From an uncultured Candidatus Saccharibacteria bacterium (GTDB lineage Bacteria > Patescibacteriota > Minisyncoccia > Phycocordibacterales > WO2-35-19): a DNA stretch of 64,000 nt. The translations under genes were made by a program, and so were the position numbers. Location of the stretch: NCBI GenBank assembly GCA_964589445.1, contig CAZPQX010000004.1:17632-81631 (forward strand), read 5' to 3'. Numbering within the stretch: the stretch's first letter is position 1; every line of letters starts with the position of its first letter. The notes beneath the pieces are model-generated. The model made no database searches. It was given only the letters and a program-made list of their open reading frames with translations, and was not told the origin of the DNA. Positions 15,741-64,000 of this stretch are shown piece after piece.

Positions 15741-15813
15741 CCGCCCGTAGCTCAGTCGGTAGAGCAGCTCCCTTTTAAGGAGATGGTCGTAGGTTCGATT
15801 CCTACCGGGCGGA
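15741..15813 (+). tRNA. tRNA-Lys (anticodon TTT)
   Basis: Cloverleaf folded by hand: 7-bp acceptor ccgcccg/cgggcgg, D arm gctc-agtcggta-gagc, anticodon loop cTTTTaa, T arm gtagg-ttcgatt-cctac. No encoded CCA. Confidence 0.8.
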
Positions 15814-16881: not shown

Positions 16882-17831
16882 TAATTGACTGTAAAAGTAT
16901 CAACTATAAGTCCGTTTTTGTCGTAGAGGTTTACCTTTTCGCGTTTTTCTCTCCATAGAGGTCCAAATTTATTCAAGAAAATACGATATTCATTTCCGGG
17001 GAAATTTGTATCACTAAAATGTTTGGCTACACATGAATTGTAGTTTATCTGTGTTTGCATATAAGTTTTGCAGGAAGAAGATACTGTATCGGGCAAGTCT
17101 CTTATATACTCACTATTTACGGTTGTGCAACGAGACAGGCTTTCAAGTAGGTCTATACACTCATCATTCCTGTCTAAATCATTTGAAAATTTAGGAAGTT
17201 TGTCATCTTCTATTAGAGGACATTCGGTTGAGAGGCTTGGATAAAATGTCCTATTTTCTTCAAAGTATCCAGTACATTTGTTTGTTCTAAACGATATGCC
17301 TATTGGTGAAAAACCTTTTGTTATTATTGCTCGGTCTCCGTTTTTGAGTACCACGTTGCTTTCATTTTTAGAAAAAGGGAAGGGGAGAAGGGAGGCCCCA
17401 CCTATAAAAACAAAATTTCCAGTAACTTCACTTTTAAAATACCAACCGGTAATATTTACCTCTTCGTCTTTACCAAGATTTGTGTAGAGGTATATGTACT
17501 CTTTGCTGGGGTCGTCATCCCACGACTTGGAGAGGCTCGAAAGTGTCACTTTGCCATAATAAGGTGAACGGGTGCTTTCTTCTATTTTTTTCTGTACTTC
17601 TTCTTCTAGGTTTTCAATTTTTCTCTCTGTATTTTTTATTTCTTCTTCTGGTGTTTGATTTGAATTTTGATTTCCAAATCCAAAGAAAGAATTATTATTG
17701 CTTTGTATGGAAGATGGGTTGTTGCTACTAGTTGCTTCTCTATTTTCAGCTGCTTTTTTTAGTGGGGCATATGCAATGCCGAGGATGATAAACCCTATGA
17801 GTATTACTAATGCTGGTGAAGCTTCTTTCAT
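16878..17831 (-). CDS. Hypothetical membrane-anchored protein with N/S/Q-rich linker, coiled-coil and a C-terminal Lamin-tail-domain (LTD)-like Cys-containing domain
   Basis: N-terminal TM, NSNQ low-complexity region, EEE/K-rich heptads, and LTD-like segment EEVNITGWYFKSEVTGNFVF...VLKNGDRAIITKG. Confidence 0.55.
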   Translation of the reverse strand: MKEASPALVILIGFIILGIAYAPLKKAAENREATSSNNPSSIQSNNNSFFGFGNQNSNQTPEEEIKNTERKIENLEEEVQKKIEESTRSPYYGKVTLSSLSKSWDDDPSKEYIYLYTNLGKDEEVNITGWYFKSEVTGNFVFIGGASLLPFPFSKNESNVVLKNGDRAIITKGFSPIGISFRTNKCTGYFEENRTFYPSLSTECPLIEDDKLPKFSNDLDRNDECIDLLESLSRCTTVNSEYIRDLPDTVSSSCKTYMQTQINYNSCVAKHFSDTNFPGNEYRIFLNKFGPLWREKREKVNLYDKNGLIVDTFTVNY

Positions 17832-18856
17832 TTAAATAATTTTTGATGAACAGGGCAGAAGTGACTACTTCTAGTTTTGACCACTATTCTTTCTATTATA
17901 CCAGAGCATTTATTTCTTGGACATTTTTTGCCTTTATTTCCGTATGCTTTATGGAAGTTTTGGAAACCTCCCTTCTCACCAAAAATATTTCTATAGTCTG
18001 ATTTGGAATCGCCGCCTTTGCCTATTGAAAATTTCAAAATCCTTTTCATTTCTTTGTAAATTTCTGACAGTTTGGTTTCTGGTACTTTGTTTGCGGGGGA
18101 GAGTGGGTGCACTCCTGTTTGCCAAAGTATTTCATCCGAGTAAATATTTCCTATACCAGCTATTATTTCTTGATCTAGGAGCACTGTTTTTATGGGTCTC
18201 ATTTTGCCCATTTCTTTTATTCTTTTTTTGAAATCCTTAATGTCTATTTTGAGAGCATCTGGGCCGAGTAGTGAAAGGCTCGCGTGGGTGTGTAGGGAGT
18301 CACTTTTAAATATAGAAACACTCGCAAATCTTCGCATGTCTGAAAGTACCAAATGTTTGCCGCACGAGAGGGAGGCTACAAAATGTATGTATTGGTTGTA
18401 GGGATCCTGAAGAGGGCCTTCTTCTATGGTTTTCCAAAAATTATTTCCTGAGCGTGCCTTTCGCAGGCTGACGAGCCGAGAAGAGGAAAAAGCCAGCAGG
18501 CTTTTATCCGTGCTAAGCGAGGGAACATAATTTTTGGAAACACGAAAGGGATATTTTTGGAGTTCATATTTCCCATACATCAAATGCCCGGTCATTTTTA
18601 TGTGTATAGAAATAGTGTACCCAGACGATAGATGGATCAAAATATTTTTACCAAGTCTTTCTACATTTTCTATTTTTGATCCGGTAGCCAACTTTTTTAA
18701 ATTTTTATAATGCTTCTCGTTCTTTATATTGTCTCTCTCTCCGTGACTTGTTGAAACGTGAAAATCAGACCATATTTCTAGTATGGTTTTGCCCATGGCA
18801 ACTTTTTTTAACCCTGTGACCGTTGTGTGTACTTCTGGAAGTTCAGGCATACCCAA
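17828..18856 (-). CDS. mutM: Formamidopyrimidine-DNA glycosylase (Fpg/MutM) carrying an in-frame repeat-element insertion
   Basis: N-terminal MPELPEVHTTV with catalytic Pro2/Glu3; C-terminal zinc finger CPRNKC...CPVHQ. Insert NYVPSLSTDKSLLAFSSSRLVSLRKARSGNNF. Confidence 0.85.
   Translation of the reverse strand: MGMPELPEVHTTVTGLKKVAMGKTILEIWSDFHVSTSHGERDNIKNEKHYKNLKKLATGSKIENVERLGKNILIHLSSGYTISIHIKMTGHLMYGKYELQKYPFRVSKNYVPSLSTDKSLLAFSSSRLVSLRKARSGNNFWKTIEEGPLQDPYNQYIHFVASLSCGKHLVLSDMRRFASVSIFKSDSLHTHASLSLLGPDALKIDIKDFKKRIKEMGKMRPIKTVLLDQEIIAGIGNIYSDEILWQTGVHPLSPANKVPETKLSEIYKEMKRILKFSIGKGGDSKSDYRNIFGEKGGFQNFHKAYGNKGKKCPRNKCSGIIERIVVKTRSSHFCPVHQKLFK
18434..18538 (-). repeat. Palindromic repeat element copy 2, inserted in-frame in fpg (opposite chromosomal orientation to copy 1, same sense relative to host gene)
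   Basis: Its reverse complement aligns base-for-base with 16544-16643 (~8 mismatches per 95 nt), including the terminal aaaattatgt.../...ataatttt ends. Confidence 0.7.
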
Positions 18857-21247: not shown

Positions 21248-21787
21248 TTGATTGCTTATAGTGCTACACAATATAAAATTGTATACATGGAAAACTCTCT
21301 AAACAATCAACCCAATTCTTTTGGGGCGGCACAGGCGCCAAAAAAGAGCGGGGCAGTTAAAATTTTAAAATTATTTTTTGTATTGGTGGTCTTTGGGCTA
21401 CTTATATATTTTGGTCTATCGTTTTACCAAAAGTATAAAGTATCAAAAATAGTCCCAGAAGATTTTTTGGTTGATTCAGGGGTTGATTTCAATATTGTTA
21501 AATCTGAGCCTTTGCCAATAATGAAATTTGAGACTAACGAGGTACTGGCCGAAGAGGCAGTGGTTTATACAGAAAGTAAATACCAATACGAAGTATTGAA
21601 AGATTTCTATAATAGGATAATAAGCGGCGAGTGGGTCGCGGTAGATGGTACCAAACAAGAAGAGGACAAGAGTATATTTAAGGTCGTAGATCAGTCAGGT
21701 ACCCTTATGTTTATATATATAGAAGGTGGTTTGAACGAACCTTCTACTAGTGTAAAAATATACAAGGTTTATAAAAATGTAAATTAA
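21248..21787 (+). CDS. Hypothetical membrane protein (single TM, 179 aa)
   Basis: TM helix ILKLFFVLVVFGLLIYFGL; no known motif. Confidence 0.5.
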   Translation: MIAYSATQYKIVYMENSLNNQPNSFGAAQAPKKSGAVKILKLFFVLVVFGLLIYFGLSFYQKYKVSKIVPEDFLVDSGVDFNIVKSEPLPIMKFETNEVLAEEAVVYTESKYQYEVLKDFYNRIISGEWVAVDGTKQEEDKSIFKVVDQSGTLMFIYIEGGLNEPSTSVKIYKVYKNVN

Positions 21788-21788
21788 T

Positions 21789-24700
21789 ATGAACTTTAAT
21801 TCAATAAAAAAGGTAATTTTATTTTCTCTATTTCTTCTTTTTGGAAATACCATGGTTGCTTCGGCTGCGAGTACAGTCACTATAAATAACTACTACAATC
21901 TTAATAGTGGTCAGACTTGTAACCTAAGCTCTTCTTCTATCGAAACCTGTAGCTCTTTTGTAAGTGATCTTGGAGGTTACTCTTTTTTACCAGTCTCCAA
22001 TAACAAAATGAATTACAACTCCGCTTCCTACGGAGGCGAGTCCATTACAAATTTTACCAATAATGTAATAGGTCCAAATGCGGTCACTCAATATGTAGGA
22101 AGTAGTGTCGCGTCTAATGTTGCAGTGGCTTATGTTCCCGGGGATATTACTGCAGTTAGTGCCACATATCTCTGTAGTGGACCTGGTGGCGTGAGGCAAT
22201 ATTCTGTCCCGGTCACACAAACAAACGGTACAGTATCAACTTTTGCTAATGTTGACACAACAGCACAGGATTGTTCTGTAACTATAAATTTCAATCAAAT
22301 TAACACCAATTCTGGTGATGGCGATAGTGGAAGCGGGGGCACACCCCCTCCAACTCCTCCACCCCCACCTATAATAGACGATCCTTTTTCAAGTATTTCC
22401 ATTTCAGCCACACCAGAATCAACAACAGTTGATTATGGAGTCGCTACTACGACTTACTTCACTGTAGTTGTTAATAAAAATGGAGATTTTCCTGCAGATA
22501 TTTTGGTTGACTGTGAAAGATTTTCTATACCAGGCAACGGAGGGGGCGAGTGTTCTTTTGTAGATAACTCCAATAATCCTATACCAAGGACCCAAGCAAA
22601 CCAACCTACACAACCTGCTGCATTTTCTAGGTACCCAAAATATTATATGAACCCAGGACTTTCCTCTGTAACACTTAGACTTGCTGTAAGAAATTATGAT
22701 CAGTATGGAGGTGTTTCGAGCGTTAAGACTCATACAATACCTATACAGGCTGGGCTCTTGGATTCTCCAATACCAATAATTACTTTCAATGGTCCACAAA
22801 TACAAAGCCCAAGATGTAGTGGTAGTTGCACAGCAGGAGACACTATAAACTTAGTCGTTCAAAATCCAGCTATTTGTGAACCTACTACTTCTGTAAATGC
22901 TACTTCGCCAGCTAATGCAAATAGGACATTTACTTTATCCTGGGCTCCTGTTTCGAATGCTCTAAATTATACAGTTGAGGTGAGAGACCAAACCTCTTGT
23001 GTATCACAGGGGTGCGGACCCGTTGTTTATAGCTCAACTGTATCGGGTACTTCCGCAACCATACCTTTTGGTGGTGATGTCGCTGGTGTACCAAATAAAA
23101 GATTTGGTTACTTTATAGGCACAAATTATTCTCCAGCAAGAACTGCTTGTAGTAATATTGGCTCGGTATTTGTCTCTCAACCTACGGGAGGATCTACGTC
23201 TACACCATCAGGTCCGTCTGGAACAGTAAATATTACTTGTAACGGATCTCAAAATGTAACCATAAGCTCGGGGCAGAATTGTAACCTAGCCTGGAACTCT
23301 TCTAATATTGTGGCTGGTTCTTGTAACGCTTCTGGTAACTGGTCTGGTGCAAAAGCGGGGAGTGGCACAGAAACTAGGTCAAACATAACTCAAAATAGTA
23401 GCTACACTATTACTTGTAGAGACAACAATGGCGCCAATGTGACTTCAACTGCTAATGTAAATGTAGCAAATGCGCCTACTGCAGATATAAGGTGTAATGG
23501 AGGTGATGCGTGTACTGCCATTAGATTTTCAAGTACACCAAACCTCACATGGAGTTGTACAAATACTAATGGAGGTTCTGCCAGTGTTTCTCCTGGGGGG
23601 TACACTGCTCACCCCAATGGTGCGGTCACGGTAGGGCCATTTTCTGGGACAAGTGCGACTTACAACCTAACATGTACTTCAGCTACTGGTGCAGTGGCTA
23701 CCGATAGTGTGACTATAAACGTGGTAAACAATGTAGCACCAGGTACTCCTGCATACAGGGTAGACTTATACCCAGATCCTCTTACGTTTAATGTTGAGAA
23801 GGGTGGAAGTTGGAGTGGTAGTGCAACCATTACTAACATAGGTGATACGACTCTAAATATAAGTGCTTTTATAGATAATGTTGTAAGTAATTTTGGTGGT
23901 TGGTATTCTCAAATAAACCCTTCTCTTGTTTGTCCAAATCTTTTGCCATCAACATTTTATACATGTTCTGTTGGTTTTGGTGGACATACTATAAATGTTG
24001 ATCAGTTTACCACTAACACCTTTGACCTAAACTTTACCGAGCCAACAGCAGGTAATAGGCTTGATATACCAGTAACTGTAAATGTGGGTGGAAGACCGTC
24101 TTGTCCCACTGCTTCTGTTTCTCTTTCAAGTAACACCGTGGATGTAGGAAGTTCAGTTACAGCCAGTGCCCCAAATAGTGATCTTTCAAATTGTACTTAT
24201 TCTACAAGCAATGCCTCCGTTGCATCTCTTTCTGGTAACCCAAGGAATGTTGTAAATGGTGTAAGTGTCGGTACTTCAAATATATCAGCTCAGTGTGATT
24301 TTATGAGTAATTGGAGATGTAATGTAAATCCAGCTACATTAAACGTAGTAAACCCATCAGCTCCTTCTCCTACTACGTACTCATTCTCTGTGGCTCCAAC
24401 ATCACTTTCTTTTAGTGCAATCCAAAATGCAGCGGCGCCTGCTTCTAAGACAGTGACTGTGACAAATACAGGTACAGGAGCTTTGAATATAACTAGAACT
24501 CAAAACATGACGAGCGGCCCATTTAACTGGGGTAGCAGCGACTCTTCAAATTTCTCTCTTGCAGTAGGTGCTTCTAGAGTTGTCACTGTTTCTATAAATA
24601 GTACTGCAGGTGACCCAGGCAACTATGATGGCATAGTTACTTTTACTGATAGTAATGCTGGTTCAAAACAAGTACCTGTGGCTTTGGTGCTCGCACCATC

Positions 24701-24971
24701 TTCTTCTACTAGAACAATAGATGTAGGTACAAACTGGTGCGGTACGGTGACAAGCTCTCCAGCTGGGATAAGTTGTGGTACTACATGTAATGCTGGGTTT
24801 ACTTACAACAACACAGTGACTCTCACCGCTACTCCAAATACTCAATGCCTCTTTATTGGGTGGCTAGGGGACTGTGCTGGGCAAGACGCTACTTGTGACT
24901 TACTCATGACTTCAAATAGGAGTGCCACTCCAATATTTGGCCTCAAACCTTTCAACTACGAGGAATTCTAA
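21789..24971 (+). CDS. Giant secreted Cys/Thr/Ser/Asn-rich surface protein (1060 aa) with a proline-rich linker
   Basis: Signal peptide (LFLLFGNTMVASAAS), GDGDSGSGGTPPPTPPPPPI linker, numerous Cys-containing beta-rich repeats (Ig/FN3-like by composition). Confidence 0.7.
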   Translation: MNFNSIKKVILFSLFLLFGNTMVASAASTVTINNYYNLNSGQTCNLSSSSIETCSSFVSDLGGYSFLPVSNNKMNYNSASYGGESITNFTNNVIGPNAVTQYVGSSVASNVAVAYVPGDITAVSATYLCSGPGGVRQYSVPVTQTNGTVSTFANVDTTAQDCSVTINFNQINTNSGDGDSGSGGTPPPTPPPPPIIDDPFSSISISATPESTTVDYGVATTTYFTVVVNKNGDFPADILVDCERFSIPGNGGGECSFVDNSNNPIPRTQANQPTQPAAFSRYPKYYMNPGLSSVTLRLAVRNYDQYGGVSSVKTHTIPIQAGLLDSPIPIITFNGPQIQSPRCSGSCTAGDTINLVVQNPAICEPTTSVNATSPANANRTFTLSWAPVSNALNYTVEVRDQTSCVSQGCGPVVYSSTVSGTSATIPFGGDVAGVPNKRFGYFIGTNYSPARTACSNIGSVFVSQPTGGSTSTPSGPSGTVNITCNGSQNVTISSGQNCNLAWNSSNIVAGSCNASGNWSGAKAGSGTETRSNITQNSSYTITCRDNNGANVTSTANVNVANAPTADIRCNGGDACTAIRFSSTPNLTWSCTNTNGGSASVSPGGYTAHPNGAVTVGPFSGTSATYNLTCTSATGAVATDSVTINVVNNVAPGTPAYRVDLYPDPLTFNVEKGGSWSGSATITNIGDTTLNISAFIDNVVSNFGGWYSQINPSLVCPNLLPSTFYTCSVGFGGHTINVDQFTTNTFDLNFTEPTAGNRLDIPVTVNVGGRPSCPTASVSLSSNTVDVGSSVTASAPNSDLSNCTYSTSNASVASLSGNPRNVVNGVSVGTSNISAQCDFMSNWRCNVNPATLNVVNPSAPSPTTYSFSVAPTSLSFSAIQNAAAPASKTVTVTNTGTGALNITRTQNMTSGPFNWGSSDSSNFSLAVGASRVVTVSINSTAGDPGNYDGIVTFTDSNAGSKQVPVALVLAPSSSTRTIDVGTNWCGTVTSSPAGISCGTTCNAGFTYNNTVTLTATPNTQCLFIGWLGDCAGQDATCDLLMTSNRSATPIFGLKPFNYEEF

Positions 24972-25016
24972 GCCAAACCTAAGCCTAAATTAGGACATAA
25001 ACTTTTATGAAATAAA

Positions 25017-25046
25017 ATAACCCTATTGACAAACAGGGTTATTTTA
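25017..25046 (+). terminator. Intrinsic terminator of the giant secreted-protein gene
   Basis: aaccct-attgacaaac-agggtt followed by atttta. Confidence 0.55.
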
Positions 25047-25114
25047 TGATATTATATTAGGTAGATACCAGCGGTTAAACCGTCGGTCAAGATTTTTGAT
25101 ATTAGGAGACTACC

Positions 25115-26578
25115 ATGTCCTTTCGCTTATTTTTTGCGATGTACCTTGTCTTTGGTACAACCTCGTCCTTCTCTCAAATGGTTCCGCCCGAACGGGCAGA
25201 GCTAGTCAGTATCGGAGGACAATGGGGGGACGTGTTGCCTCCCAAAACCGAAGTCCGTGCCGTGGAGGTTCTCGGGTCGTCTGACCCGCTGCTGCCTTGG
25301 CAGGAGGAACTCTTCCAGAAGACGGGCTATGCTCGTCTCTTGGAACAGCGCGGCGCGGGTTTTTCCCACATTCGCGGAGCGGCTGTCGTCGTGATGGGTA
25401 CGGGGGTAGATGCAAATCACCCCGACCTTGTCGGCCGGGTGGATTGTGCCGTCTCGGAGACGTTCATTGAAGGAGGGGGAGACCCCTGTGTCGATGAATA
25501 CGGACATGATACCGCTGTTGCCACCATTGGCTTCGCCAATGGTGGGGACGGCATTGGGATGAAAGGATTTGCGAATAATACGCGAATCATCTCCCTCAAA
25601 GTCATGACGACCGGGATCAACGAATTCGGTCGGACAGTACTCAAGACTTCTCTTGACGCCATCATTAAGGCGTTCAGACGGGTTGGGGAGCTCGCTTTGA
25701 CCGAGGAAGCAGTGATTGTTATTGCTGCCTTTTCGATCGACGGCGTTGACCCGACGCTTCGAGGACTCTTCGCTGAGCTCGAGAAACAGGATCGAGTTTA
25801 TGTTGTCAGTTCAACTGACAACATACGCTTCTTGAACTCGGAGACCCAACCGGGTCTTCCATGTTCGGCGTCGACGCTCTCCAATGTGGATTGCGTCGCT
25901 ACGTTGACCATGGATGGCGGGCTCGCTCCCTGGAGTGCTTATGGCAAGCGTATCACCCAAACTGGGCGTGCTGCTTCATCCGGTGTGATCGCTGGGTACC
26001 CTGGAGGTCGCTACGGCAACTTCCTAGGGAACAGCGGAAGCGCTCCTCAGGTTGCGGCTCTTGCTTCACTCGTGTGGGGCTACGCGTACGGGAGGGGGAG
26101 GAACCTCACGGCTGCAGAGCTTAAAATGCTTATGCAGAGAGGCGCGAGCTTTTCTCCTGGCCTCGTCTCGGCGATCGTGCAGTACGAGGTGGCCACACCC
26201 CACACCTTGGACGCCTACCGGCTGTTTGAGGTAGTTGACCTTTACCTCGAAGGGAAGCTCCAGGCGCTCACCGAAGGGACTCTCAGGGTCTCTGGGGTGA
26301 AGTCGGGAGAGTTCGGTGTCGCTACTGACCTAAAGGTCCGTGAGCGGTACACAATTGTCGGACAGGGTTTTTCGGAGGGCTACTTGCTATTACTGAACGG
26401 GATGCCGATCCGGTTCAGTTACTCGGGGGAAATCGCGGAGTTTGAGCTCCCTGAGGCAGCATCTTTCTTCTCTTTGAGAGGAGGAGACAATGTCTTGTAC
26501 TTCGCCAGAGTGGACGAGGAGGGGAGGGCCTGTCCTTTCTCAGTCACTAAAGTCCTTAGCGGATTCCAAATCCGCTAA
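25115..26578 (+). CDS. Subtilase (peptidase S8)-like protein encoded in a foreign GC-rich island; the catalytic Asp may be substituted
   Basis: Signal peptide; VVVMGTGVDANHPDL (subtilase Asp-region, with G where the catalytic D of IDTG is expected); GHDTAVATIG (His-region); GNSGSAPQVAALAS (Ser-region, Ser conserved). RBS aggaga at -10. GC ~58-60% versus ~35% in the flanks. Confidence 0.7.
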   Translation: MSFRLFFAMYLVFGTTSSFSQMVPPERAELVSIGGQWGDVLPPKTEVRAVEVLGSSDPLLPWQEELFQKTGYARLLEQRGAGFSHIRGAAVVVMGTGVDANHPDLVGRVDCAVSETFIEGGGDPCVDEYGHDTAVATIGFANGGDGIGMKGFANNTRIISLKVMTTGINEFGRTVLKTSLDAIIKAFRRVGELALTEEAVIVIAAFSIDGVDPTLRGLFAELEKQDRVYVVSSTDNIRFLNSETQPGLPCSASTLSNVDCVATLTMDGGLAPWSAYGKRITQTGRAASSGVIAGYPGGRYGNFLGNSGSAPQVAALASLVWGYAYGRGRNLTAAELKMLMQRGASFSPGLVSAIVQYEVATPHTLDAYRLFEVVDLYLEGKLQALTEGTLRVSGVKSGEFGVATDLKVRERYTIVGQGFSEGYLLLLNGMPIRFSYSGEIAEFELPEAASFFSLRGGDNVLYFARVDEEGRACPFSVTKVLSGFQIR

Positions 26579-26651
26579 GGCACGCAATGGTTCGCCGCGA
26601 CACGCGGCAAAACAAAAGCGAGTTCGTTTTGTTGTGGAGGGTGACTCTACG

Positions 26652-26676
26652 GCAAGCGACTCGCTTTTTATCTTTT
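26652..26676 (+). terminator. Intrinsic terminator at the right edge of the GC-rich island
   Basis: aagcga-c-tcgctt palindrome followed by ttttatctttt. Confidence 0.5.
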
Positions 26677-26690
26677 ATTAATTTTTAATT

Positions 26691-28469
26691 TTACTGAACA
26701 ACTATCTCAATCCAAGTGTTTGCTGGTACCAAGCCTCCAAAAGCTGCTATTTGGTTGCTTGGATTGTTGTTTGTGCCTATTGAGACAATGTGCTGAGCAT
26801 TTGCTGGGCTTGGATTGTTCTCAGTGAGCAGTCTTATTTTAGATACATTTTTGGTTGATCCATAGTCGAGGACTATCCAGCCAGTACGATCCATCCTTGT
26901 GTTGTCTATGTTTGCAGCTATGCAAGCGTCTATTGTTTCGTTTAGTTTGGACCAGTCACAGCCTGGGGCAGTTTCTCCCGCATTCCATGTTGTGCTTATA
27001 TTTCCGTCATAAACCTTGTTTGCACCACCTGTATTGTTGTCTCTAAAGTAACTGTTTTTACACCACTCACAACTTACTTGGCCTGATGTTGGAGTTATTT
27101 TATTTCCCTGCAAATCATAAATTTCTATTTCTCTCCAACCTACCCAAGACCTACTCTTTGTATCAACTTTTAAATATCTGAAAGAAAGGGGACCTGTAAT
27201 TGTCTTTGAAGGGGAGAAGGTGGTAGGGATGGTAACAGTAGTACCTGTGTTTGTATTGCCTCCAGTACTTGTGTTGCCGGTGCCATTTAATTGAGCTAAG
27301 AGTGAATCTATAAGTGCTTGCAAACTACTTATCTGGGTTTGTAGTCCGCCTGCGGTGGTATTGCTGCCTGTAGTTGAGCCTCCTGTGGTGGACCCGCCGG
27401 TGTTCGAAGATGAGCAGGTCATTTTTGAATTCATAAAACTCAAAGTTGATGGACCTACAAACCCGCTACCTCGAGTCAAACCAACAGGGGAGAGTATGTA
27501 AGAAGCATACTTTTCTTGGTAAGCGATCACAGCATTATAAACTTGTGTATCGAAGGTTGTCTTTGATTGAGACAACAAGCCTTCTTTTACTAGTTCTGCT
27601 GTGAGTAGCGCTACTTCTGATCCGCTGTCTCCCATTCTTAGGCTAGAGGTTATCCTGGCGCAACTACTATTGTTTGTGGCTGTTGAGTTGTTGCTAGGTG
27701 TAATTGGGCTCGTTGGTGTTGTGAAGGTTGGGAGGGTGTAGCTTGAGCTTCCGGAAGTGATAAATGAAAGTGCATTTTTGGCTGCATTTACTTGGTTTGC
27801 CACAACTCCACTTATTGTAGTGGGGTAGTTTGTGCTACCTGAAGCAAATCCTGACCCCGTGCTTGTATTTGTGTTGGTATTTGTACTAGTGTTGTTTGTG
27901 CCCGTGTTTGTGTTGGTGGGAGTTGCACTAGTAAATAGAGACCATGTCGGGTTTAGATTTGAGTTTGTGAGTGCTGTGCCGTTATATCCTGCGAGTAGCA
28001 CAGCGTCGTGTCCAGTGCTCCCGTTTACTGTACAAGGAATATTGTAGTAGTAACCAGGAAGCCCTGGTGCAGATAATGGGTATGTAGCGATGCTTACTTG
28101 GCAGCTCACATTTAGTCCTCTCGCAAGACCTTCTTGTCTTGCTATTTGTGCACAAGCCAGGGCATCCTCCATGTTTAGTCTTGGATCACCGGTACATACA
28201 GTAGAGCTGGAGTTGCTATCGGAATTTGAATTATCAGAATTATTTGTACCCACATTGGAAAGATTTTGGTAGAAAGTTCCGTAGTAAGTTTGATTTGCTT
28301 GTTGTAGCTGGCTCTGTGTTGCAGGCTGTCCTGTAGCAGGATCTGTACCAGTAGAGAGTATTATCCTGGCTATTTCCTGATCAGAAGTTAGAGTTGATTG
28401 TGCAAATCCGTAAAATGGGTAAACAAGAAATAAGGAAAGAGTCAGGATTGATATTGTTTTTTTATTCAT
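26691..28469 (-). CDS. Secreted protein with peptidoglycan-binding-like domain, Q-rich heptad motif and C-terminal F5/8 type C (discoidin) domain
   Basis: Signal peptide; MGDSGSEVALLTAELVKEGLL (PG_binding_1-like); LQTQISSLQALIDSLLAQLNG; C-terminal KVYDGNISTTWNAG...WIVLDYG discoidin signature; Thr/Asn-rich linkers. Confidence 0.65.
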   Translation of the reverse strand: MNKKTISILTLSLFLVYPFYGFAQSTLTSDQEIARIILSTGTDPATGQPATQSQLQQANQTYYGTFYQNLSNVGTNNSDNSNSDSNSSSTVCTGDPRLNMEDALACAQIARQEGLARGLNVSCQVSIATYPLSAPGLPGYYYNIPCTVNGSTGHDAVLLAGYNGTALTNSNLNPTWSLFTSATPTNTNTGTNNTSTNTNTNTSTGSGFASGSTNYPTTISGVVANQVNAAKNALSFITSGSSSYTLPTFTTPTSPITPSNNSTATNNSSCARITSSLRMGDSGSEVALLTAELVKEGLLSQSKTTFDTQVYNAVIAYQEKYASYILSPVGLTRGSGFVGPSTLSFMNSKMTCSSSNTGGSTTGGSTTGSNTTAGGLQTQISSLQALIDSLLAQLNGTGNTSTGGNTNTGTTVTIPTTFSPSKTITGPLSFRYLKVDTKSRSWVGWREIEIYDLQGNKITPTSGQVSCEWCKNSYFRDNNTGGANKVYDGNISTTWNAGETAPGCDWSKLNETIDACIAANIDNTRMDRTGWIVLDYGSTKNVSKIRLLTENNPSPANAQHIVSIGTNNNPSNQIAAFGGLVPANTWIEIVVQ

Positions 28470-28482
28470 GTTTTTTGTCTAA

Positions 28483-31197
28483 CTACTTAGTAGTACATGA
28501 CCATGTTTCATCTTTAAATACCTGATTTGCTTGTCCAAAGTTACATACCGCTGCAGTTCTAAACCAGTATTTTGTTTTTGGTTTAAGACCCGTGACCTGT
28601 ATGCCGCCTCCTGCCATATCACCATCTTGTTGTGCATACCCCACATTCACACCCCATATCTGGTCTAGCTTCAAGAAACACTCTGAGGCATTGGCGCAAC
28701 CTCCTTTGACTGCTGCTTCACCTTTACCACCGTTATCCTCTGCTACTCTAAGGACCATTCTTGCATTAGGGAAGTTTTTTGGATACCAAGCCGTTGTTAC
28801 AGGAAGTCCGACATCAACCATTGTTGATGTAACATTTGAACAGCTACTATTTCCTGTCCAACCTACTTGAGGCATACCAACTTTTGTAAAGTCTAGGGTA
28901 GCCAGTGCTTGTTCACATGAAGAAGTAAATGTGGGGGCAGCAGGGGGATTTACTTTTGTTCCATAATCTCCGCTCTTGTACTCTGTATTTACTTGTCCAT
29001 TTAGGAATATATTTTTGCTATCTCCAAATATTCCATTGTCTGCTACTACGCGCACAAAGAAGTTTGCTTGTGTTTTTTGTACTGCTTGATCGAGCACACC
29101 TCCAGATAGGCTTCCGTATAATCTACTTCCAGCGTGTACCTGTCCCGGTACTGGTAGGGAAGTCTCTGGAGGTATCGTGAAGTTAAATGTGTTCACACCT
29201 TGTCCACTAGAAATACCTTCAGCAAGAGTTGCCTCCACACCCAGTTCGTTTTCGTGTCCAGGCACTACTCCTCTTGTAAGAAGATATATACTTACATTTC
29301 TTACTCCGCTTGGAGCCTGCCAAGAAACTGTACCAGTCCTATCTGAGGTTGTATTGACACTAACATTTACTATACCCATACACGACTGAGGTACTGTTGT
29401 AAGTGTGGTTGCTGTATTAGGTCTAAATACACCTTTTGTTGCGTCATATGTTACGTCCCAAGCACCAGCTGCTTTTCTAGCCAATTCTGCATTAAAGTAC
29501 CATAGCCACTGATACCAACCTTGAGGTTCTCCATGTGGGGATGAGGCTCCAAAATCATTACCTACAGCTGAACTTGCTTCTCCTACAAATAATTTTTCTC
29601 CGCGCTCTCCTAGGCTACATGATGTTGCTCTACCCCAATATTGCTGGTTTGCACTACAGAAACCGTCTGGGGTGCCATCTCCAACTCCACAGTATTCACC
29701 GACGCTGCATGATGCGTCGTCAAACCCTAGTCTTTTTGCTTGTGATACGAATAGGTCGGCACATTCTTGGGCATATCTTCTCTGGTCAGCCAAGCTTACT
29801 GTGTTTATAACCTTTCCGTCCGGACCTGCGTGGTTGAACCCAGCACCACCCGCTGCATAGTGACACCTTTGCCAAGTTTTCATTTCTTGAGCTAGACTTG
29901 AAGAAACTGTAAATCTTGGTGAAATAGCAGTTCCTGGTGAGAATTTCTGATTTCCTAGTGCCGCAAGACACGAATTAACATTTTCTGATTTTGGAGTTGA
30001 AGCGGGGCATTGATCAAACTGACAACTCTTCAAATTGTTTCTATATGTAAGGCTTCCATCTGGGCATACCTCAGGATAAGGGTCACATGTGCCGTATATT
30101 CCTGTTATCTTACTATTATTTTCACATTCAGAGAATGAACATATTCCTCCTGCAAAAATTTTTCCGTGGGCCGTTGTTCTGTTAGGGCAAACCCTTAGAG
30201 TGTCAGTAGGACAAACGTTATTAGGAGGATTTACAATAGTTACAGTCATGGTCTTGGCATTTGTTAAGGAGTTTGCTTGGGCTACAGTAGGACATTGTTC
30301 ATTTGAACATACTGCTGTACCCGTGTTAGTACAGATTACGAAATTTTTACATTGAGAATCTGAAGTATAAACTTTTGCGGTTACTACCTGGGTACCTGTT
30401 GGATACCCTGCGTAAGGATCTTGTGGAACTGGGCGAGTTATTATTGTTAGTGGCCCTGTTGCTGTGTTGGTCGAGCTTCCTGTTGTTGTAGTGCCGGTTG
30501 TACCTATAGGAATGTTTGCTACTGTTGTATTTCCACCAAGTTTTGCCAAGAGAGATTGTACTATTGCAAGGAGTTGGTTTATTTGAGCCTGGAGGCCTGC
30601 GATCGTTTGGTCTCCAGATGTGGTTGTTGTGGTGGTCGTAGTATCTGCTGTAACTGAAGTACCTCCTCTTGAGATTGGTATTTCCGAAACTGACATAACT
30701 CTGCCACTTTCGTTCCTAGTATTGAAATATACGCTTCTTATTATTGCACATTCTGGGTCGCTGCTACCAAGACTTTCATTACATAGACTGCTTGGTCCAG
30801 CGAAATATTTAACTACATACCTTGTCGCCGGATCGAGTTTTACTGCTAGTGGATTTGATGATGTGCGTTCTCTTCCAGCGGGGTCTACGTCTACTACATA
30901 GGAGTATTCATTTGTAGCAGGGGCTACAACGAACCTACCTTCAGAGTCCCGAGTTCTTTTCCATGTGAAATTGTATGTCCACTTGCCTCCACTAAACTCG
31001 ATTGCTTGTGTTTGGAGAAGGAAATTTACATCCCCAGAGTCTGTTAGTGTTGCTACTGGGTATGATGTGCTTTGAGCGAAAGCGCCCATCTTTGATCCAA
31101 GAAACACAGCAGACAAAATCAGTATCACGGCCGCTGGCAGGGTAGCTGAAATTATTTTTTTATTTAACATAAACCTTATTTTTAATTTAATCCACAA
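28483..31197 (-). CDS. Giant secreted Cys-rich protein (904 aa) with FN3-like C-terminal domains and Q-rich heptad motif
   Basis: Signal peptide/TM; poly-Thr (TTTTTTTT) linker; LQAQINQLLAIVQSLLAKLGG; FN3-like segments (TGTVSWQAP...; LKPKTKYWFRTAAV). Confidence 0.65.
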   Translation of the reverse strand: MWIKLKIRFMLNKKIISATLPAAVILILSAVFLGSKMGAFAQSTSYPVATLTDSGDVNFLLQTQAIEFSGGKWTYNFTWKRTRDSEGRFVVAPATNEYSYVVDVDPAGRERTSSNPLAVKLDPATRYVVKYFAGPSSLCNESLGSSDPECAIIRSVYFNTRNESGRVMSVSEIPISRGGTSVTADTTTTTTTTSGDQTIAGLQAQINQLLAIVQSLLAKLGGNTTVANIPIGTTGTTTTGSSTNTATGPLTIITRPVPQDPYAGYPTGTQVVTAKVYTSDSQCKNFVICTNTGTAVCSNEQCPTVAQANSLTNAKTMTVTIVNPPNNVCPTDTLRVCPNRTTAHGKIFAGGICSFSECENNSKITGIYGTCDPYPEVCPDGSLTYRNNLKSCQFDQCPASTPKSENVNSCLAALGNQKFSPGTAISPRFTVSSSLAQEMKTWQRCHYAAGGAGFNHAGPDGKVINTVSLADQRRYAQECADLFVSQAKRLGFDDASCSVGEYCGVGDGTPDGFCSANQQYWGRATSCSLGERGEKLFVGEASSAVGNDFGASSPHGEPQGWYQWLWYFNAELARKAAGAWDVTYDATKGVFRPNTATTLTTVPQSCMGIVNVSVNTTSDRTGTVSWQAPSGVRNVSIYLLTRGVVPGHENELGVEATLAEGISSGQGVNTFNFTIPPETSLPVPGQVHAGSRLYGSLSGGVLDQAVQKTQANFFVRVVADNGIFGDSKNIFLNGQVNTEYKSGDYGTKVNPPAAPTFTSSCEQALATLDFTKVGMPQVGWTGNSSCSNVTSTMVDVGLPVTTAWYPKNFPNARMVLRVAEDNGGKGEAAVKGGCANASECFLKLDQIWGVNVGYAQQDGDMAGGGIQVTGLKPKTKYWFRTAAVCNFGQANQVFKDETWSCTTK

Positions 31198-62074: not shown

Positions 62075-62431
62075 TTTCGTTTCTGGATCGCCGAGAGACC
62101 TGCAATAAATGCTAGTTTCCCGGCGGTAGAGAAGATTTCAAGTTCGGAATGAGAGAATTTTGACAAATAAAAGCCACTGCAACATCGCTTTTCGATAGAC
62201 TTTGTTCTCTAAGGGTTAGCCCTAAGTGAGCGGAGCGAGTCGGAGGGGTCTTTGTTTGTTGTAAGTGGACAAAATCCCGTGACCTTTAATTTATTAAAGA
62301 TTTTACGGGAGTAAGGTAAGGTCCTATGCTGTTCAACACAGCGATAGGACAAATTGCCTTTTAAGTTTGGTCTTAAAAGGCAGGATAGAATGATGAATTT
62401 TCCTTTGCCGCCAATAGGGTAGGCTTGGAAA

Positions 62432-64000
<1,569 letters not shown>

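What the first reader, a model, noticed from the sequence alone, without database searches (positions are those of the whole stretch)
25065..26690. Sharply bounded GC-rich (~58-60%) island carrying a subtilase-like gene inside an AT-rich secreted-protein locus
Base composition jumps from about 33-36% GC to nearly 60% within a few bases at both ends. The island contains exactly one gene with its own SD (aggaga) and terminator (aagcgactcgctt + T-run). It is flanked by a terminator of the upstream giant secreted-protein gene and by the 3' end of another secreted-protein gene. Codon usage (third-position G/C) is that of a high-GC donor. This is either very recent horizontal acquisition or a chimeric assembly join. 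The antisense strand shows long ORFs only because stop codons are rare at this GC.
Basis: seen in the sequence. Interest (0 to 1): 0.7.

Follow-up and report, generated by a model that had tools for sequence, protein, structure and literature searches.

The report
GC-rich, hyper-structured subtilase gene cassette
A single secreted-protease-like gene in an AT-rich candidate-phyla-radiation bacterium is GC-rich because its whole messenger RNA appears to be selected to fold into unusually stable hairpins, not because it arrived recently from a GC-rich donor or was mis-assembled; the trait is kept in every relative examined but one while alleles of the gene are swapped between lineages.

Summary
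The island is real. ORF 25115-26578 (487 aa, Peptidase_S8) has GC 0.56 and GC3 0.62. The 50 other ORFs in the window have GC3 0.20-0.39 (z=8.6).

It is not a chimera: three independent assemblies are 100% identical across both junctions.

It is not a recent import from a high-GC donor. Syntenic orthologues in Ca. Paceibacterota (81-39% aa identity, synonymous sites saturated) keep GC3 0.57-0.66, against neighbour GC3 of 0.27-0.44. No donor-like homologue turned up in the public protein collections searched.

The decisive new result is RNA structure. The mRNA folds far more stably than synonymous-codon shuffles (z=-10.4). Twenty-six other window genes average z=-1.0, with a minimum of -4.2. Every family member tested shows the excess, the sense strand more than the antisense. 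Some helices are conserved with compensatory changes.

The GC-rich tract equals the transcript body. Upstream lie a conserved near-consensus promoter and a covarying 5' hairpin. Downstream lie a stop-codon hairpin and a terminator.

Gene trees conflict with housekeeping trees, and 100%-identical blocks alternate with 60-82% blocks. Alleles are therefore exchanged by recombination within a hypervariable secreted-protein locus.

Best reading: selection for a hyper-stable transcript drives the composition. The link to GC content is inferred.

The parts
25019..25040 (+). Terminator-like hairpin (AACCCT-loop-AGGGTT plus T-run) that closes the upstream 1060-aa secreted-protein gene. Its loop carries the -35 box of the S8 promoter.
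   Evidence: Read from the sequence. Conserved as CCCTATTGACAAgTAGGG in L004, L013 and L009. Not listed by the terminator scan because the loop is 10 nt.
25026..25055 (+). Sigma-70-type promoter: TTGACA, 18-nt spacer, TG-extended TATTAT (11 of 12 consensus positions).
   Evidence: An equivalent 10-12/12 match lies 47-88 nt upstream of the ATG in 11 of 12 family loci, all but L016. Function is inferred, not shown.
25067..25087 (+). Hairpin at the predicted 5' end of the transcript (about +5 to +25). Likely an mRNA stabiliser.
   Evidence: Local MFE folds. RNAalifold on 5 orthologues gives 9 pairs, 5 of them with compensatory double changes. Different hairpins occupy the same place in L007 and L015.
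25104..25108 (+). Shine-Dalgarno AGGAG, 6 nt before the ATG, preceded by the conserved U-rich linker GATTTTTGAT.
25115..26578 (+). CDS of a 487-aa secreted subtilase-family (S8) protein. Layout: signal peptide, S8 domain (about aa 85-345), C-terminal beta-rich domain (about aa 390-487). The catalytic Asp position is Gly; His131, Asn236 and Ser307 are kept.
   Evidence: Pfam PF00082, E 2.3e-15, 57.1 bits. PDB alignments. Family alignment. dN/dS 0.17-0.20. AlphaFold2 model with mean pLDDT 64.7 matches subtilisins with TM up to 0.72 normalised to the target.
25115..25160 (+). AT-richer start of the CDS (signal-peptide codons, GC 0.38-0.42). Predicted to be less paired than the body of the gene.
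   Evidence: The same dip is seen in all nine orthologues.
25160..26660 (+). GC-rich, hyper-structured body of the transcript. Mean MFE is -59 kcal/mol per 150 nt, and about 70% of bases are paired in the local MFE fold.
   Evidence: Synonymous-shuffle z = -10.4; 26 other genes have mean -0.98, sd 1.32, minimum -4.2. Dinucleotide-shuffle z of five consecutive segments (four of 300 nt, the last 376 nt) = -3.4, -6.1, -4.9, -1.0, -5.6. Sense -59.1 against antisense -49.2 kcal/mol. Fraction paired.
25223..25244 (+). Best-conserved internal helix (UGGGGGG...CCUCCCA; GGAGGG/CCCUCC in relatives).
   Evidence: Helix 7: 94.8% of cells paired across 11 sequences, with G-C to A-U compensatory changes that also change the encoded residues (Gly/Arg and Pro/Ser; alignment).
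25521..25545 (+). Perfect 11-bp hairpin CCACCATTGGC-TTC-GCCAATGGTGG, encoding ATIGFANGG.
   Evidence: Also present in L004. Codon shuffles give a mean of 0.64 such hairpin calls per gene.
25799..25825 (+). Perfect 12-bp hairpin TATGTTGTCAGT-TCA-ACTGACAACATA, encoding YVVSSTDNI (includes the oxyanion Asn motif).
26554..26580 (+). Perfect 12-bp hairpin spanning the stop codon (CCTTAGCGGATT-CCA-AATCCGCTAAGG), encoding VLSGFQIR*.
   Evidence: Kept in L011, L013 and L009. In the distant clade most positions (columns 1585-1597) still pair, some as G-U, while the outer pairs are broken (helix 66, 67% of cells paired).
26594..26608 (+). 3' UTR hairpin GCCGCG-ACA-CGCGGC.
   Evidence: Helix 67 (92% paired where present).
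26612..26669 (+). Long terminator hairpin (AAAAGCGAG...CTCGCTTTT) followed by a T-run.
   Evidence: Helix 68: 79.7% paired, and 11 of 24 pairs have changes on both sides. Compensatory GCGAG/CTCGC, GCGG/CCGC and GCGGG/CCCGC.
21248..24971 (+). Linked genes: a small membrane-anchored protein (179 aa) and a 1060-aa Cys/Ser/Thr-rich secreted protein. Together with the S8 gene they recur as a module whose order varies between lineages.
   Evidence: The order is S8-small-giant in L007 and L016, and small-giant-S8 in the window, L008 and L017.
26691..31197 (-). Two further secreted-protein genes (592 and 904 aa) of the same hypervariable, mosaic locus.
   Evidence: Mosaic identity profile.

Best explanation
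The island is one transcription unit of a Candidatus Paceibacterota (CPR) bacterium. It encodes a secreted subtilase-family protein that belongs to a hypervariable secreted/surface-protein locus.

Its GC-richness is a long-standing property of this gene family, not a trace of a foreign genome. The most likely cause is selection for an unusually stable, hairpin-dense mRNA. A strong promoter is followed by a 5'-terminal protective hairpin and then an AT-rich, more open ribosome-binding and start region. Next comes a coding body in which synonymous sites, and some amino-acid choices, are arranged to maximise base pairing. The transcript ends with a hairpin over the stop codon, a further 3' hairpin and a long terminator. 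Favouring stable pairing pushes flexible positions towards G and C whatever the host's AT bias. That explains why the GC-rich tract matches the transcript body and why GC3 stays near 0.6 in hosts whose other genes have GC3 0.27-0.46.

The probable benefit is a long functional mRNA half-life, or controlled translation, of this secreted protein. Independently of this, alleles of the gene are exchanged among related lineages by homologous recombination, as happens in other surface-antigen-type loci.

Shown: the composition anomaly and its conservation; protein-coding constraint; the excess RNA structure and its specificity to this gene family; partial covariation; gene-tree conflict and mosaicism.

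Inferred: that selection on structure causes the GC content, and that its purpose is mRNA stability or expression control.
For: 1. The anomaly is conserved. S8 GC3 is 0.575-0.663 in the window, L004, L009, L013, L011, L007, L008, L010 and L015, 0.596 in L019, and 0.57 in both S8 genes of L017. Neighbours have GC3 0.27-0.44. It is 0.637 in the distant L018, the highest value on that contig, where other genes range 0.28-0.59. Alleles differ by dS 0.6 to over 2, so the synonymous sites have turned over while GC3 stayed put.
2. The gene really codes for protein: dN/dS 0.17-0.20, intact 472-499-aa ORFs, an S8 Pfam match and a subtilisin fold.
3. RNA structure exceeds what composition predicts. Synonymous-codon shuffles give z = -10.4 (window), -8.0, -9.9, -9.1, -7.5, -9.4 and -7.8 in orthologues, and -5.5, -5.7 and -3.6 in distant members. 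The 26 other window genes have mean -0.98, minimum -4.2. GC-matched ordinary genes from relatives give -0.5 and -0.7, and a Bacillus phage S8 gene gives -1.8. Dinucleotide-shuffle z reaches -6.1.
4. The effect is stronger on the transcribed strand: sense -59.1 against antisense -49.2 kcal/mol per 150 nt.
5. Covariation is present. On an 11-sequence alignment the window-derived structure has 64% of cells paired, against 40-44% when partners are slid. It has 299 double-sided changes, against 141-187 (slid) and 195 (shuffled). The covariation score is 0.176 against about 0.10. Compensatory changes occur in the 5' hairpin, the terminator and internal hairpins.
6. The architecture fits a stabilised transcript. 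A near-consensus promoter is conserved in 11 of 12 loci. The GC-rich tract starts about 45 nt into the CDS and ends at the terminator in all nine orthologues.
7. Other genes next to S8 in relatives that have raised GC also show excess structure (L008 229 aa, z -5.5; L018 709 aa, z -5.5).
8. Published precedent for the logic. A highly structured CDS raises functional mRNA half-life and protein output in engineered mRNAs in eukaryotic cells (PMC6883848). Bacteria select AU-rich, unfolded codons at gene starts (PMC3964316).
9. Recombination is evident.
- Window versus L009: MurLig, RuvA and S20 are 93, 97 and 98% identical (aa), but S8 only 65%.
- L007 versus L008: the same three are 68, 66 and 81%, but S8 is 92%, with dS 0.53 against saturated neighbours.
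- The 86%-identical segment between L007 and L008 is the island itself, and it sits at a different position in the locus.
- Window versus L004 shows 100%-identical blocks alternating with 60-82% blocks.
Against: - The causal step from selected structure to GC-richness is inferred. GC-richness of independent origin would also raise absolute stability, although it would not produce the shuffle z-scores.
- Predicted MFE pair sets overlap only 3-12% between distant clades. Much of the structure is therefore lineage-specific, so 'generic stability' rather than one defined fold is being claimed. All structure evidence is thermodynamic prediction.
- L016 shows excess structure (z -5.5) without a GC anomaly (GC3 0.46 in a 46%-GC contig), so structure excess does not always require a GC jump.
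- The codon shift covers every family, including Arg CGN and NCG codons. That also looks like a general GC-rich 'genome signature'.
- The start region is only moderately open in the predicted folds.
- There are no expression or half-life data.
- The window subclade lacks the canonical catalytic Asp, so the protein's activity is uncertain.
Confidence: 0.55

Rival explanations
1. Reservoir model. The S8 cassette evolves mainly in an unsampled GC-rich lineage and is repeatedly imported into AT-rich Paceibacterota by recombination. It is replaced before it can ameliorate, so its composition is the donor's genomic signature.
For: Gene-tree conflict and mosaicism show that alleles really move. All codon families shift together, including Arg CGN 72% against 16% and NCG codons. 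The amino-acid composition is also GC-type: GARP/FYMINK 1.51 against 0.62 +/- 0.24. Polarised synonymous changes on terminal branches lean from strong (G/C) to weak (A/T), 81 against 36.
Against: None of the 13 distinct family loci (the window included) has a background GC3 close to the gene's ~0.6; means are 0.27-0.46. No further close relatives were found among 5.8 billion protein clusters, 1.84 billion representatives, GTDB genomes, JGI metagenomes, IMG/VR or GenBank phages. The model does not predict the z of about -10 for excess structure, nor the coincidence of the GC-rich tract with the transcript body. The 81:36 ratio matches what parsimony bias alone gives at a GC3 equilibrium of 0.62 (simulated ratios 1.4-1.9; p 0.1-0.4 for 1.6-1.9, 0.02 for 1.4).
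Confidence: 0.17
2. GC-biased gene conversion. The S8 gene is a recombination hot spot, and biased mismatch repair in heteroduplexes drives it towards GC.
For: Intense recombination is evident in and around the gene. All three codon positions and part of the 3' UTR are GC-enriched.
Against: The neighbouring secreted-protein genes are equally mosaic and deeply divergent between close strains (dS 0.9-1.3), yet keep GC3 0.27-0.36. From background knowledge (not checked here), a +0.3 shift in GC3 is far larger than the gBGC effects reported in bacteria. The model does not explain structure beyond composition.
Confidence: 0.07
3. Very recent horizontal acquisition from a high-GC donor.
For: The codon usage is an extreme outlier for this genome. 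Window versus L004 shows that part of the gene was replaced recently.
Against: The gene is present, syntenic and GC-rich in orthologues from 81% down to 39% aa identity. No high-GC homologues were found. There are no mobility genes, tRNA or flanking repeats.
Confidence: 0.03
4. Chimeric assembly join.
For: None beyond the abrupt change in composition. One assembly (L002) ends 166 nt upstream of the gene.
Against: Independent Logan assemblies from three runs are 100% identical to the window, two of them across both junctions. The same gene order is seen in unrelated samples.
Confidence: 0.01
5. Selection for non-preferred (rare, GC-ending) codons to slow or limit translation of a potentially harmful protease. 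The structure would be a by-product.
For: Lowest codon-adaptation index in the window, 0.457 against 0.716. The protein is secreted and carries a signal peptide.
Against: Codon choice alone cannot give a z of -10, because the shuffles keep every codon count. The strong conserved promoter and the stabilising 5' and 3' hairpins point to high rather than low expression. GC1, GC2 and the 3' UTR are also shifted.
Confidence: 0.07
6. The hairpins are a mutational by-product, not selected. The idea is quasi-palindrome template switching in a DNA segment that is often single-stranded during transformation or recombination.
For: Three perfect 11-12-bp palindromes lie inside the coding sequence. The genome also carries a palindromic insertion element in two genes. 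The gene is exchanged frequently.
Against: The sense strand is clearly more stable than the antisense, which implies G-U pairs and hence RNA rather than DNA. The equally recombining neighbours have z from 0 to -2.9. The excess is spread over nearly all 150-nt windows and is not confined to a few palindromes.
Confidence: 0.05

Closest known systems
Subtilases (MEROPS/Pfam family S8: subtilisin, thermitase, mycosin, lanthipeptide leader peptidases, site-1 protease)
   Same: Pfam PF00082 well above the gathering score. The His, Asn (oxyanion) and Ser motifs are in the canonical order. The AlphaFold2 model superposes on subtilisins (TM up to 0.72 normalised to the target). It is a secreted precursor with a signal peptide and an extra C-terminal beta-domain, as in many subtilases.
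   Different: In the window subclade the catalytic Asp (D of 'xDTG') is Gly, and the Gly after the catalytic His is Asp (GHGT to GHDT). This swap covaries perfectly in 21 family members and occurs in at least three separate lineages. The family is tiny and restricted to Patescibacteria: 13 proteins with E below 1e-30 among 1.84 billion representatives. No classical I9 propeptide match was found.
Horizontally acquired genomic islands, and surface-polysaccharide or antigen loci whose atypical GC content persists across strains (for example O-antigen clusters; from general knowledge)
   Same: Atypical composition, a sharply bounded tract, gene-tree conflict, mosaic recombination between strains, and a location in a variable cell-surface locus.
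   Different: It is a single gene, without integrase, tRNA, repeats or transposase. It is present in all syntenic relatives found. Only this gene of the variable locus is compositionally deviant. The deviation matches the transcript body and comes with excess RNA structure.
mRNAs with highly structured coding sequences that gain functional half-life (Mauger et al. 2019, PMC6883848), and the rule that bacterial gene starts are kept AU-rich and unfolded (Bentele et al. 2013, PMC3964316)
   Same: A more open, AT-rich start followed by a strongly paired CDS body, with 5' and 3' protective hairpins.
   Different: The published cases are engineered mRNAs in eukaryotic cells, or genome-wide weak trends. 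Here a natural bacterial gene shows the pattern at an extreme level (z about -10, +18 GC points over background), and the pattern is conserved across a family. No stability measurements exist for it.
Genome-scale ordered RNA structure of RNA phages and viruses; GC-rich structured non-coding RNA islands in AT-rich genomes (Klein, Misulovin and Eddy 2002; from general knowledge)
   Same: Pervasive stable pairing that overlaps coding sequence, and a GC-rich island in an AT-rich genome that signals structured RNA.
   Different: This is a chromosomal, DNA-encoded, protein-coding gene under purifying selection on the protein. No Rfam family matches.

Membership tests
Peptidase family S8 (subtilases) | Significant match to the S8 profile over the catalytic domain | tested here: met
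   PF00082, E 2.3e-15, 57.1 bits against a cutoff of 21.8, residues 88-345. 44 PDB subtilases match at E of 0.01 or below.
Peptidase family S8 (subtilases) | Subtilisin-like alpha/beta fold | tested here: met
   The AlphaFold2 model (mean pLDDT 64.7, core 75-93) matches subtilisin, thermitase and S1P by Foldseek, E 1e-12 to 1e-9, target-normalised TM about 0.7.
Peptidase family S8 (subtilases) | Catalytic Asp in the D-[ST]-G motif | tested here: not met
   The window protein has VMGTG where subtilases have viDTG. Distant orthologues (P0008-P0012, L010) keep DTG.
Peptidase family S8 (subtilases) | Catalytic His (H-G-T), oxyanion Asn and catalytic Ser (G-x-S-x-[AS]-x-P) | tested here: met
   H131, N236 and S307 are invariant in the 13-member alignment. 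The motif reads GHDT rather than GHGT in the window subclade.
Peptidase family S8 (subtilases) | Proteolytic activity | not testable with these tools
   Needs an enzyme assay. Whether Asp132 can replace the missing Asp could not be judged, because the tools do not return model coordinates.
Recently acquired genomic island (HGT from a compositionally different donor) | Atypical base composition and codon usage | tested here: met
   GC3 z = 8.6; CAI 0.457 against 0.716 +/- 0.033.
Recently acquired genomic island (HGT from a compositionally different donor) | Patchy presence among close relatives (absent from sister genomes at the same site) | tested here: not met
   The gene is present in the same neighbourhood in every related locus retrieved. 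Caveat: those loci were found through the gene itself, so empty sites were not searched for.
Recently acquired genomic island (HGT from a compositionally different donor) | Mobility signatures (integrase or transposase, tRNA target, flanking direct repeats) | tested here: not met
   No repeats flank the island. The nearest tRNAs are at 15741 and 36917. The neighbours are secreted proteins.
Recently acquired genomic island (HGT from a compositionally different donor) | Closest homologues in a donor lineage with matching composition | tested here: not met
   All close homologues whose context was read lie in Paceibacterota-type contigs with GC3 0.27-0.46.
Recombining or laterally exchanged allele in a hypervariable locus | Gene tree in conflict with flanking housekeeping genes, and mosaic identity blocks | tested here: met
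Assembly chimera | The junctions are not reproducible in independent assemblies | tested here: not met
   Contigs from three runs are 100% identical to the window, two of them across both junctions.
Known structured non-coding RNA family (Rfam) | Covariance-model match | tested here: not met
   Only two chance-level hits, E 0.04 and 0.42, far below the gathering scores. At gathering threshold the whole window yields only tRNAs and 23S rRNA.
Diversity-generating retroelement target | A template/variable repeat pair and a nearby reverse transcriptase | tested here: not met
   No repeat pairs the island with any other part of the 64 kb. No RT domain appeared among the ~19 window ORFs scanned with Pfam; the remaining ORFs were not scanned. 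An RVT_1 gene lies about 4 kb upstream of the S8 gene only in L015.

The most novel reading that the evidence does not exclude
A natural bacterial protein-coding gene whose entire transcript is under strong, family-wide selection for secondary structure. On this reading the selection is strong enough to override the genome's AT mutational bias by about 18 GC points, to impose covarying amino-acid changes (Gly/Arg with Pro/Ser), and to define a 'compositional island' that mimics horizontal transfer. This would be a bacterial, DNA-encoded counterpart of the genome-scale ordered RNA structure of RNA viruses. It might mark a class of self-stabilised or dual-function mRNAs in reduced-genome CPR bacteria. 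A more exotic extension cannot be excluded: the unit exchanged between L007 and L008 runs from just upstream of the SD to the terminator, so the RNA itself might take part in the cassette's spread.
Probability: 0.4. Interest if true: 0.75.

Novelty: new variant of a known kind. Interest (0 to 1): 0.6.

Why it matters
Compositional outliers are routinely read as recent horizontal transfer or as contamination in metagenome-assembled genomes. Here the signal is neither. It is a conserved, gene-specific property that goes together with extreme mRNA structure.

If selection on transcript structure can move a gene's GC content by about 18 points, two things follow. HGT and contamination screens based on GC or codon usage will give false positives for such genes. 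And mRNA stability becomes a visible evolutionary force on bacterial coding sequence, one that here even shapes amino-acid choices.

The case also offers testable handles on how slow-growing, reduced-genome CPR bacteria control expression of cell-surface proteins. It exposes a recombining, hypervariable secreted-protein locus that is probably involved in host or phage interactions. Finally, the subtilase family shows a recurrent Asp/Gly swap at the active site, which may be a case of catalytic-residue relocation.

Tried and rejected
- Assembly chimera: rejected from three identical independent assemblies.
- Donor search: no GC-rich donor found. Searched the word-indexed protein collection, a full HMMER profile scan of 1.84 billion representatives, GTDB genomes (one Paceibacterota locus), JGI metagenomes (one locus), IMG/VR (none) and GenBank phages (only Bacillus phage S8 proteins at 25% identity).
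- DGR or repeat-mediated origin: no repeat partner for the island in the window.
- Known RNA family: none.
- Overlapping antisense gene: only 101- and 82-aa antisense ORFs, and the antisense strand folds less stably.
- Polarised substitution test for ongoing amelioration. It gave 81 strong-to-weak (G/C to A/T) changes against 36 weak-to-strong. Simulations showed that parsimony bias alone gives ratios of 1.4-1.9 at equilibrium, and controls in AT-rich genes show the mirror bias. The test is inconclusive and is not used.
- gBGC: rejected as the main cause, because equally recombining neighbours stay AT-rich at third positions.
- Hidden paralogy as the cause of the tree conflict. L017 does carry a second S8 gene, but it is only 20-24% identical to the main family (27% to P0017). 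It therefore cannot account for 92%-identical S8 genes at different positions in L007 and L008.
- Function of the neighbours: Pfam and NCBIfam gave only weak hints (Flg_new_2, choice-of-anchor D, fn3).
- Partition-function folding of whole transcripts timed out and was replaced by local MFE folds.
- Literature searches found no description of this family or phenomenon.


Full report
OBSERVATION

The window is 37.9% GC. Its 1-kb bins are 0.30-0.44 GC, apart from two bins covering 25001-27000 (0.53 and 0.52) and the last bin, 63001-64000 (0.50), which lies in the 23S rRNA gene that starts at 62424.

The ORF 25115-26578 (+, 487 aa) is 56.1% GC, with GC1 0.60, GC2 0.46 and GC3 0.62. 200-nt windows peak at 0.61-0.615. 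The other 50 ORFs of at least 100 aa have GC3 0.197-0.391 (mean 0.30, sd 0.037), so this ORF is 8.6 sd away. Its codon-adaptation index relative to the rest of the window is 0.457, against 0.716 +/- 0.033. Arg is 72% CGN against 16% elsewhere, ATA is 5% against 59%, and NCG codons are 26-31% against 5-9%.

The flanking genes are 41.7% and 43.1% GC, with high GC2 and low GC3 because they are Ser/Thr/Gly-rich. Only the intergenic spacers are 20-28% GC. The 3' edge is sharp. The 5' edge ramps through a 0.40-0.45 GC 5' UTR and a 0.38-0.42 GC signal-peptide region before GC reaches 0.60 at about 25160.

NOT A CHIMERA

The exact protein is encoded on contigs assembled independently from three sequencing runs. 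All three are 100% identical to the window over 8.9-18.1 kb, and two of them span both junctions.

WHAT THE GENE IS

The product matches Pfam Peptidase_S8 (E 2.3e-15) and 44 solved subtilases. The best NCBIfam hit is mycosin, far below its cutoff. An AlphaFold2 model (mean pLDDT 64.7, core well predicted) superposes on subtilisins, thermitase and site-1 protease.

The protein has a signal peptide and a C-terminal beta-rich domain. dN/dS against three orthologues is 0.18-0.20, and 0.17 against L011. ORF length is conserved (472-499 aa). It is a genuine protein-coding gene.

One oddity concerns the active site. In the window subclade the catalytic Asp is Gly (VMGTG), and the residue after the catalytic His is Asp (GHDT instead of GHGT). 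More distant orthologues keep DTG/GHGT. Across 21 family members the two states covary perfectly, and the swapped state appears in at least three separate lineages.

LINEAGE AND FAMILY SIZE

The one species-representative genome that carries a relative is a Candidatus Paceibacterota MAG. The nearest named outgroup protein is labelled Patescibacteria. The window also has CPR-typical content: type IV pilus genes, few tRNAs, and a 23S rRNA gene with no 16S gene upstream of it within the window.

The family is very small. There are 13 close homologues among 5.8 billion clusters. A profile search of 1.84 billion representatives finds 4 clusters below 1e-98 and 13 proteins below 1e-30. There is one JGI metagenome locus and none in viral collections.

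THE ANOMALY IS CONSERVED, NOT RECENT

In relatives sharing 81% down to 39% aa identity the gene lies in the same neighbourhood: Fpg, Mur ligase, RuvA, S20, small protein, giant secreted protein, S8, more secreted proteins, P-type ATPase, RuvX, PilM.

In the window and eleven of the twelve other distinct loci the S8 gene has the highest GC3 of its neighbourhood:
- 0.575-0.663 in the window, L004, L009, L013, L011, L007, L008, L010 and L015, where the other ORFs average 0.27-0.44;
- 0.596 in L019, and 0.57 for both S8 genes of L017;
- 0.637 in the distant L018, the highest value on that contig.

Only L016 (46% GC background) shows no jump. Pairwise dS between alleles ranges from 0.5 to above 2. 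The synonymous sites have therefore been rewritten while GC3 stayed near 0.6, independently of host GC3.

A recent arrival from a high-GC donor cannot produce this pattern, and no donor-like homologue was found.

I tried to detect ongoing decay with polarised synonymous changes. The count was 81 strong-to-weak (G/C to A/T) against 36 weak-to-strong. Simulations and AT-rich control genes show that parsimony bias alone gives similar ratios, so the test is uninformative.

THE ALLELES ARE EXCHANGED

- Window versus L009: Mur ligase, RuvA and S20 are 93, 97 and 98% identical, but S8 is 65%. dS is 1.49 for S8 against 0.12-0.34 for the housekeeping genes.
- L007 versus L008 shows the reverse. The housekeeping proteins are 66-81% identical with saturated synonymous sites, but S8 is 92% identical with dS 0.53.
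- Between L007 and L008 the only segment with 86% nucleotide identity is the island itself, from 30 nt upstream of the ATG to about 100 nt past the stop. It sits at a different place in the locus: after S20 in L007 and L015, after the giant gene in L008 and the window.
- The S8 identity matrix groups L007 with L008, whereas the housekeeping genes group L007 with L015.
- Window versus L004 is a mosaic. Blocks of 100% identity (most of the giant gene, 26172-26372 inside S8, and 30372-30772) alternate with blocks of 60-82%, including the first kilobase of S8.

The locus is therefore a recombining, hypervariable secreted-protein region, and S8 alleles move within it. Hidden paralogy does not explain this. 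The second S8 gene in L017 is only 20-24% identical to the main family.

Recombination alone also does not explain the composition. The equally mosaic neighbours keep GC3 0.27-0.36.

THE NEW FINDING: THE TRANSCRIPT IS HYPER-STRUCTURED

I permuted synonymous codons within the gene, which keeps the protein and every codon count. The native mRNA folds much more stably than these shuffles: the mean MFE of 150-nt windows is -59 against -49 kcal/mol, z = -10.4.

The same test gives:
- -8.0, -9.9, -9.1, -7.5, -9.4 and -7.8 for orthologues;
- -5.5, -5.7 and -3.6 for distant family members;
- a mean of -0.98 (sd 1.32, minimum -4.2) for the 26 other window genes of at least 290 aa;
- -0.5 and -0.7 for ordinary genes of about 50% GC in relatives, and -1.8 for a Bacillus phage S8 gene.

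Dinucleotide-preserving shuffles of five consecutive segments (four of 300 nt, the last 376 nt) give z = -3.4, -6.1, -4.9, -1.0 and -5.6. The sense strand is 10 kcal/mol per 150 nt more stable than the antisense. That fits G-U pairing in a G- and U-rich transcript and points to RNA rather than DNA.

The coding sequence contains three perfect 11-12-bp hairpins: 25521-25545, 25799-25825, and 26554-26580 across the stop codon. Codon shuffles average 0.64 hairpin calls per gene.

CONSERVATION OF THE STRUCTURE IS PARTIAL

Structures predicted independently share about 35% of pairs within close groups, but only 3-12% between distant groups. The window-derived structure, scored on an 11-sequence alignment, does better than the controls:
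- 64% of cells paired, against 40-44% when partners are slid;
- 299 double-sided changes, against 141-187 (slid) and 195 (shuffled);
- a covariation score of 0.176, against about 0.10.

Several helices are well kept. One is 25223-25244, where a G-C to A-U compensatory change also converts Gly/Pro to Arg/Ser. Others are the hairpins shared by L013 and L009 with a G-C to A-T double change and the terminator. I read this as selection for overall stability, with some fixed helices and a good deal of turnover.

TRANSCRIPT ARCHITECTURE

A near-consensus promoter (TTGACA, 18 nt, TG-extended TATTAT; 25026-25055) sits in the loop of the upstream gene's terminator hairpin. Equivalent 10-12/12 matches precede the gene in 11 of 12 loci.

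The predicted 5' end is followed at once by a hairpin (25067-25087), in which 5 of 9 pairs show compensatory changes among five orthologues. Next come a conserved U-rich linker, the SD and an AT-richer start. The GC-rich body runs to the stop-codon hairpin, a GC hairpin (26594-26608) and a long terminator (26612-26669) with compensatory changes.

The GC-rich tract therefore coincides with the body of one mRNA in all nine orthologues examined.

INTERPRETATION

The simplest account of all these facts is that this gene family is selected for an exceptionally stable, hairpin-dense transcript. Such selection favours G and C at every flexible position, whatever the host's mutational bias.

That would explain the host-independent GC3, the shift towards Arg over Lys and a GARP-rich composition, the exact match between island and transcript, the AT-rich start (compare PMC3964316), and the excess structure beyond composition.

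Extended functional half-life and higher protein output from a structured CDS have been demonstrated for engineered mRNAs (PMC6883848). The 5'-terminal and 3' hairpins are classical bacterial stabilisers (general knowledge). The purpose — stability, translation control or something else — is inferred, and the causal arrow from structure to GC is not proven.

The main rival is a GC-rich reservoir lineage that keeps re-donating the cassette. It is weakened by the absence of any such genome among the 13 family loci (the window included) and in the large searches, and by its failure to predict the structure signal. gBGC, rare-codon selection, mutational palindrome formation, recent HGT and chimerism all fare worse; the reasons are listed under the rival explanations.

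COMPARISON WITH KNOWN THINGS, AND NOVELTY

The protein belongs to the S8 fold family, but in this subclade it fails the canonical Asp criterion. The island resembles an HGT island only in its composition and its recombination history. It lacks mobility signatures, patchy distribution and a donor.

Pervasive coding-region structure is known from RNA viruses and from engineered mRNAs. I know of no description of it as a conserved, composition-shifting property of a bacterial chromosomal gene, and the literature searches found none. I therefore rate it a new variant of a known kind, with moderate to high interest (0.6).

Noticed in passing
window 16536-16643 (+) and 18432-18539 (-): A ~108-nt palindromic element occurs twice at 88% identity. 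It has terminal inverted repeats (TTCTGAAAATTAT...ATAATTTTCAGAA) and a GC-rich core, and folds with z = -7.3. It is inserted in frame in two unrelated genes: SpoU methylase (16276-16881) and Fpg (17828-18856). Both ORFs stay open and their Pfam matches are split or stretched. It resembles the Rickettsia palindromic elements that insert into coding sequences.
   Followed up: partly
window 25397-25399 (Gly95) and 25508-25510 (Asp132); family alignments: The catalytic Asp of the subtilase triad is Gly, and the Gly after the catalytic His is Asp. The two changes covary perfectly in 21 family members and occur in at least three separate lineages: P0001-P0007, P0166/P0018 and P0020. This may be a relocation of the catalytic acid, or a pseudoprotease state. 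P0020 has also lost the His and the Ser.
   Followed up: partly
window 62424-64000 (+): A 23S rRNA gene starts here and runs off the window. No 16S rRNA or tRNA gene lies upstream of it within the window, so the rRNA genes may be unlinked.
   Followed up: no
window 37947-41432 (+): A class-I aminoacyl-tRNA synthetase ORF (1161 aa) carries an inserted histidine-phosphatase (His_Phos_1) domain at aa 504-668, between the two halves of the catalytic domain.
   Followed up: no
L017 4872-6065 and 10001-11500: One relative carries two S8 genes flanking the small and giant genes. They share only about 23% identity. Both have GC3 0.57, against neighbours at 0.30-0.45, and both show excess mRNA structure (z -3.6 and -7.8).
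   Followed up: partly
L008 11601-12290; L018 7690-9819; L015 7443-8123: Other genes next to the S8 gene in relatives also combine raised GC (0.48-0.53) with excess mRNA structure (z -5.5, -5.5 and -2.3). The property may extend to a few partner genes of the locus.
   Followed up: partly
window 21248-31197 versus L004, L009, L013: The whole secreted-protein locus is a recombination mosaic. Against L004, blocks of 100% identity alternate with blocks of 60-82%. Against L009, the housekeeping flanks have dS 0.12-0.34 while the locus has dS 0.9-1.5. One assembly of the same population (L002) breaks at 24949, inside the 3' end of the giant gene.
   Followed up: yes
window 25019-25055: The -35 box of the S8 promoter lies in the loop of the upstream gene's terminator hairpin. 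This compact terminator-promoter overlap is conserved in the four closest relatives.
   Followed up: partly
L015 700-1524: A reverse-transcriptase (RVT_1) gene of 274 aa lies about 4 kb upstream of the S8 gene in one relative only. No template/variable repeat was looked for there.
   Followed up: no
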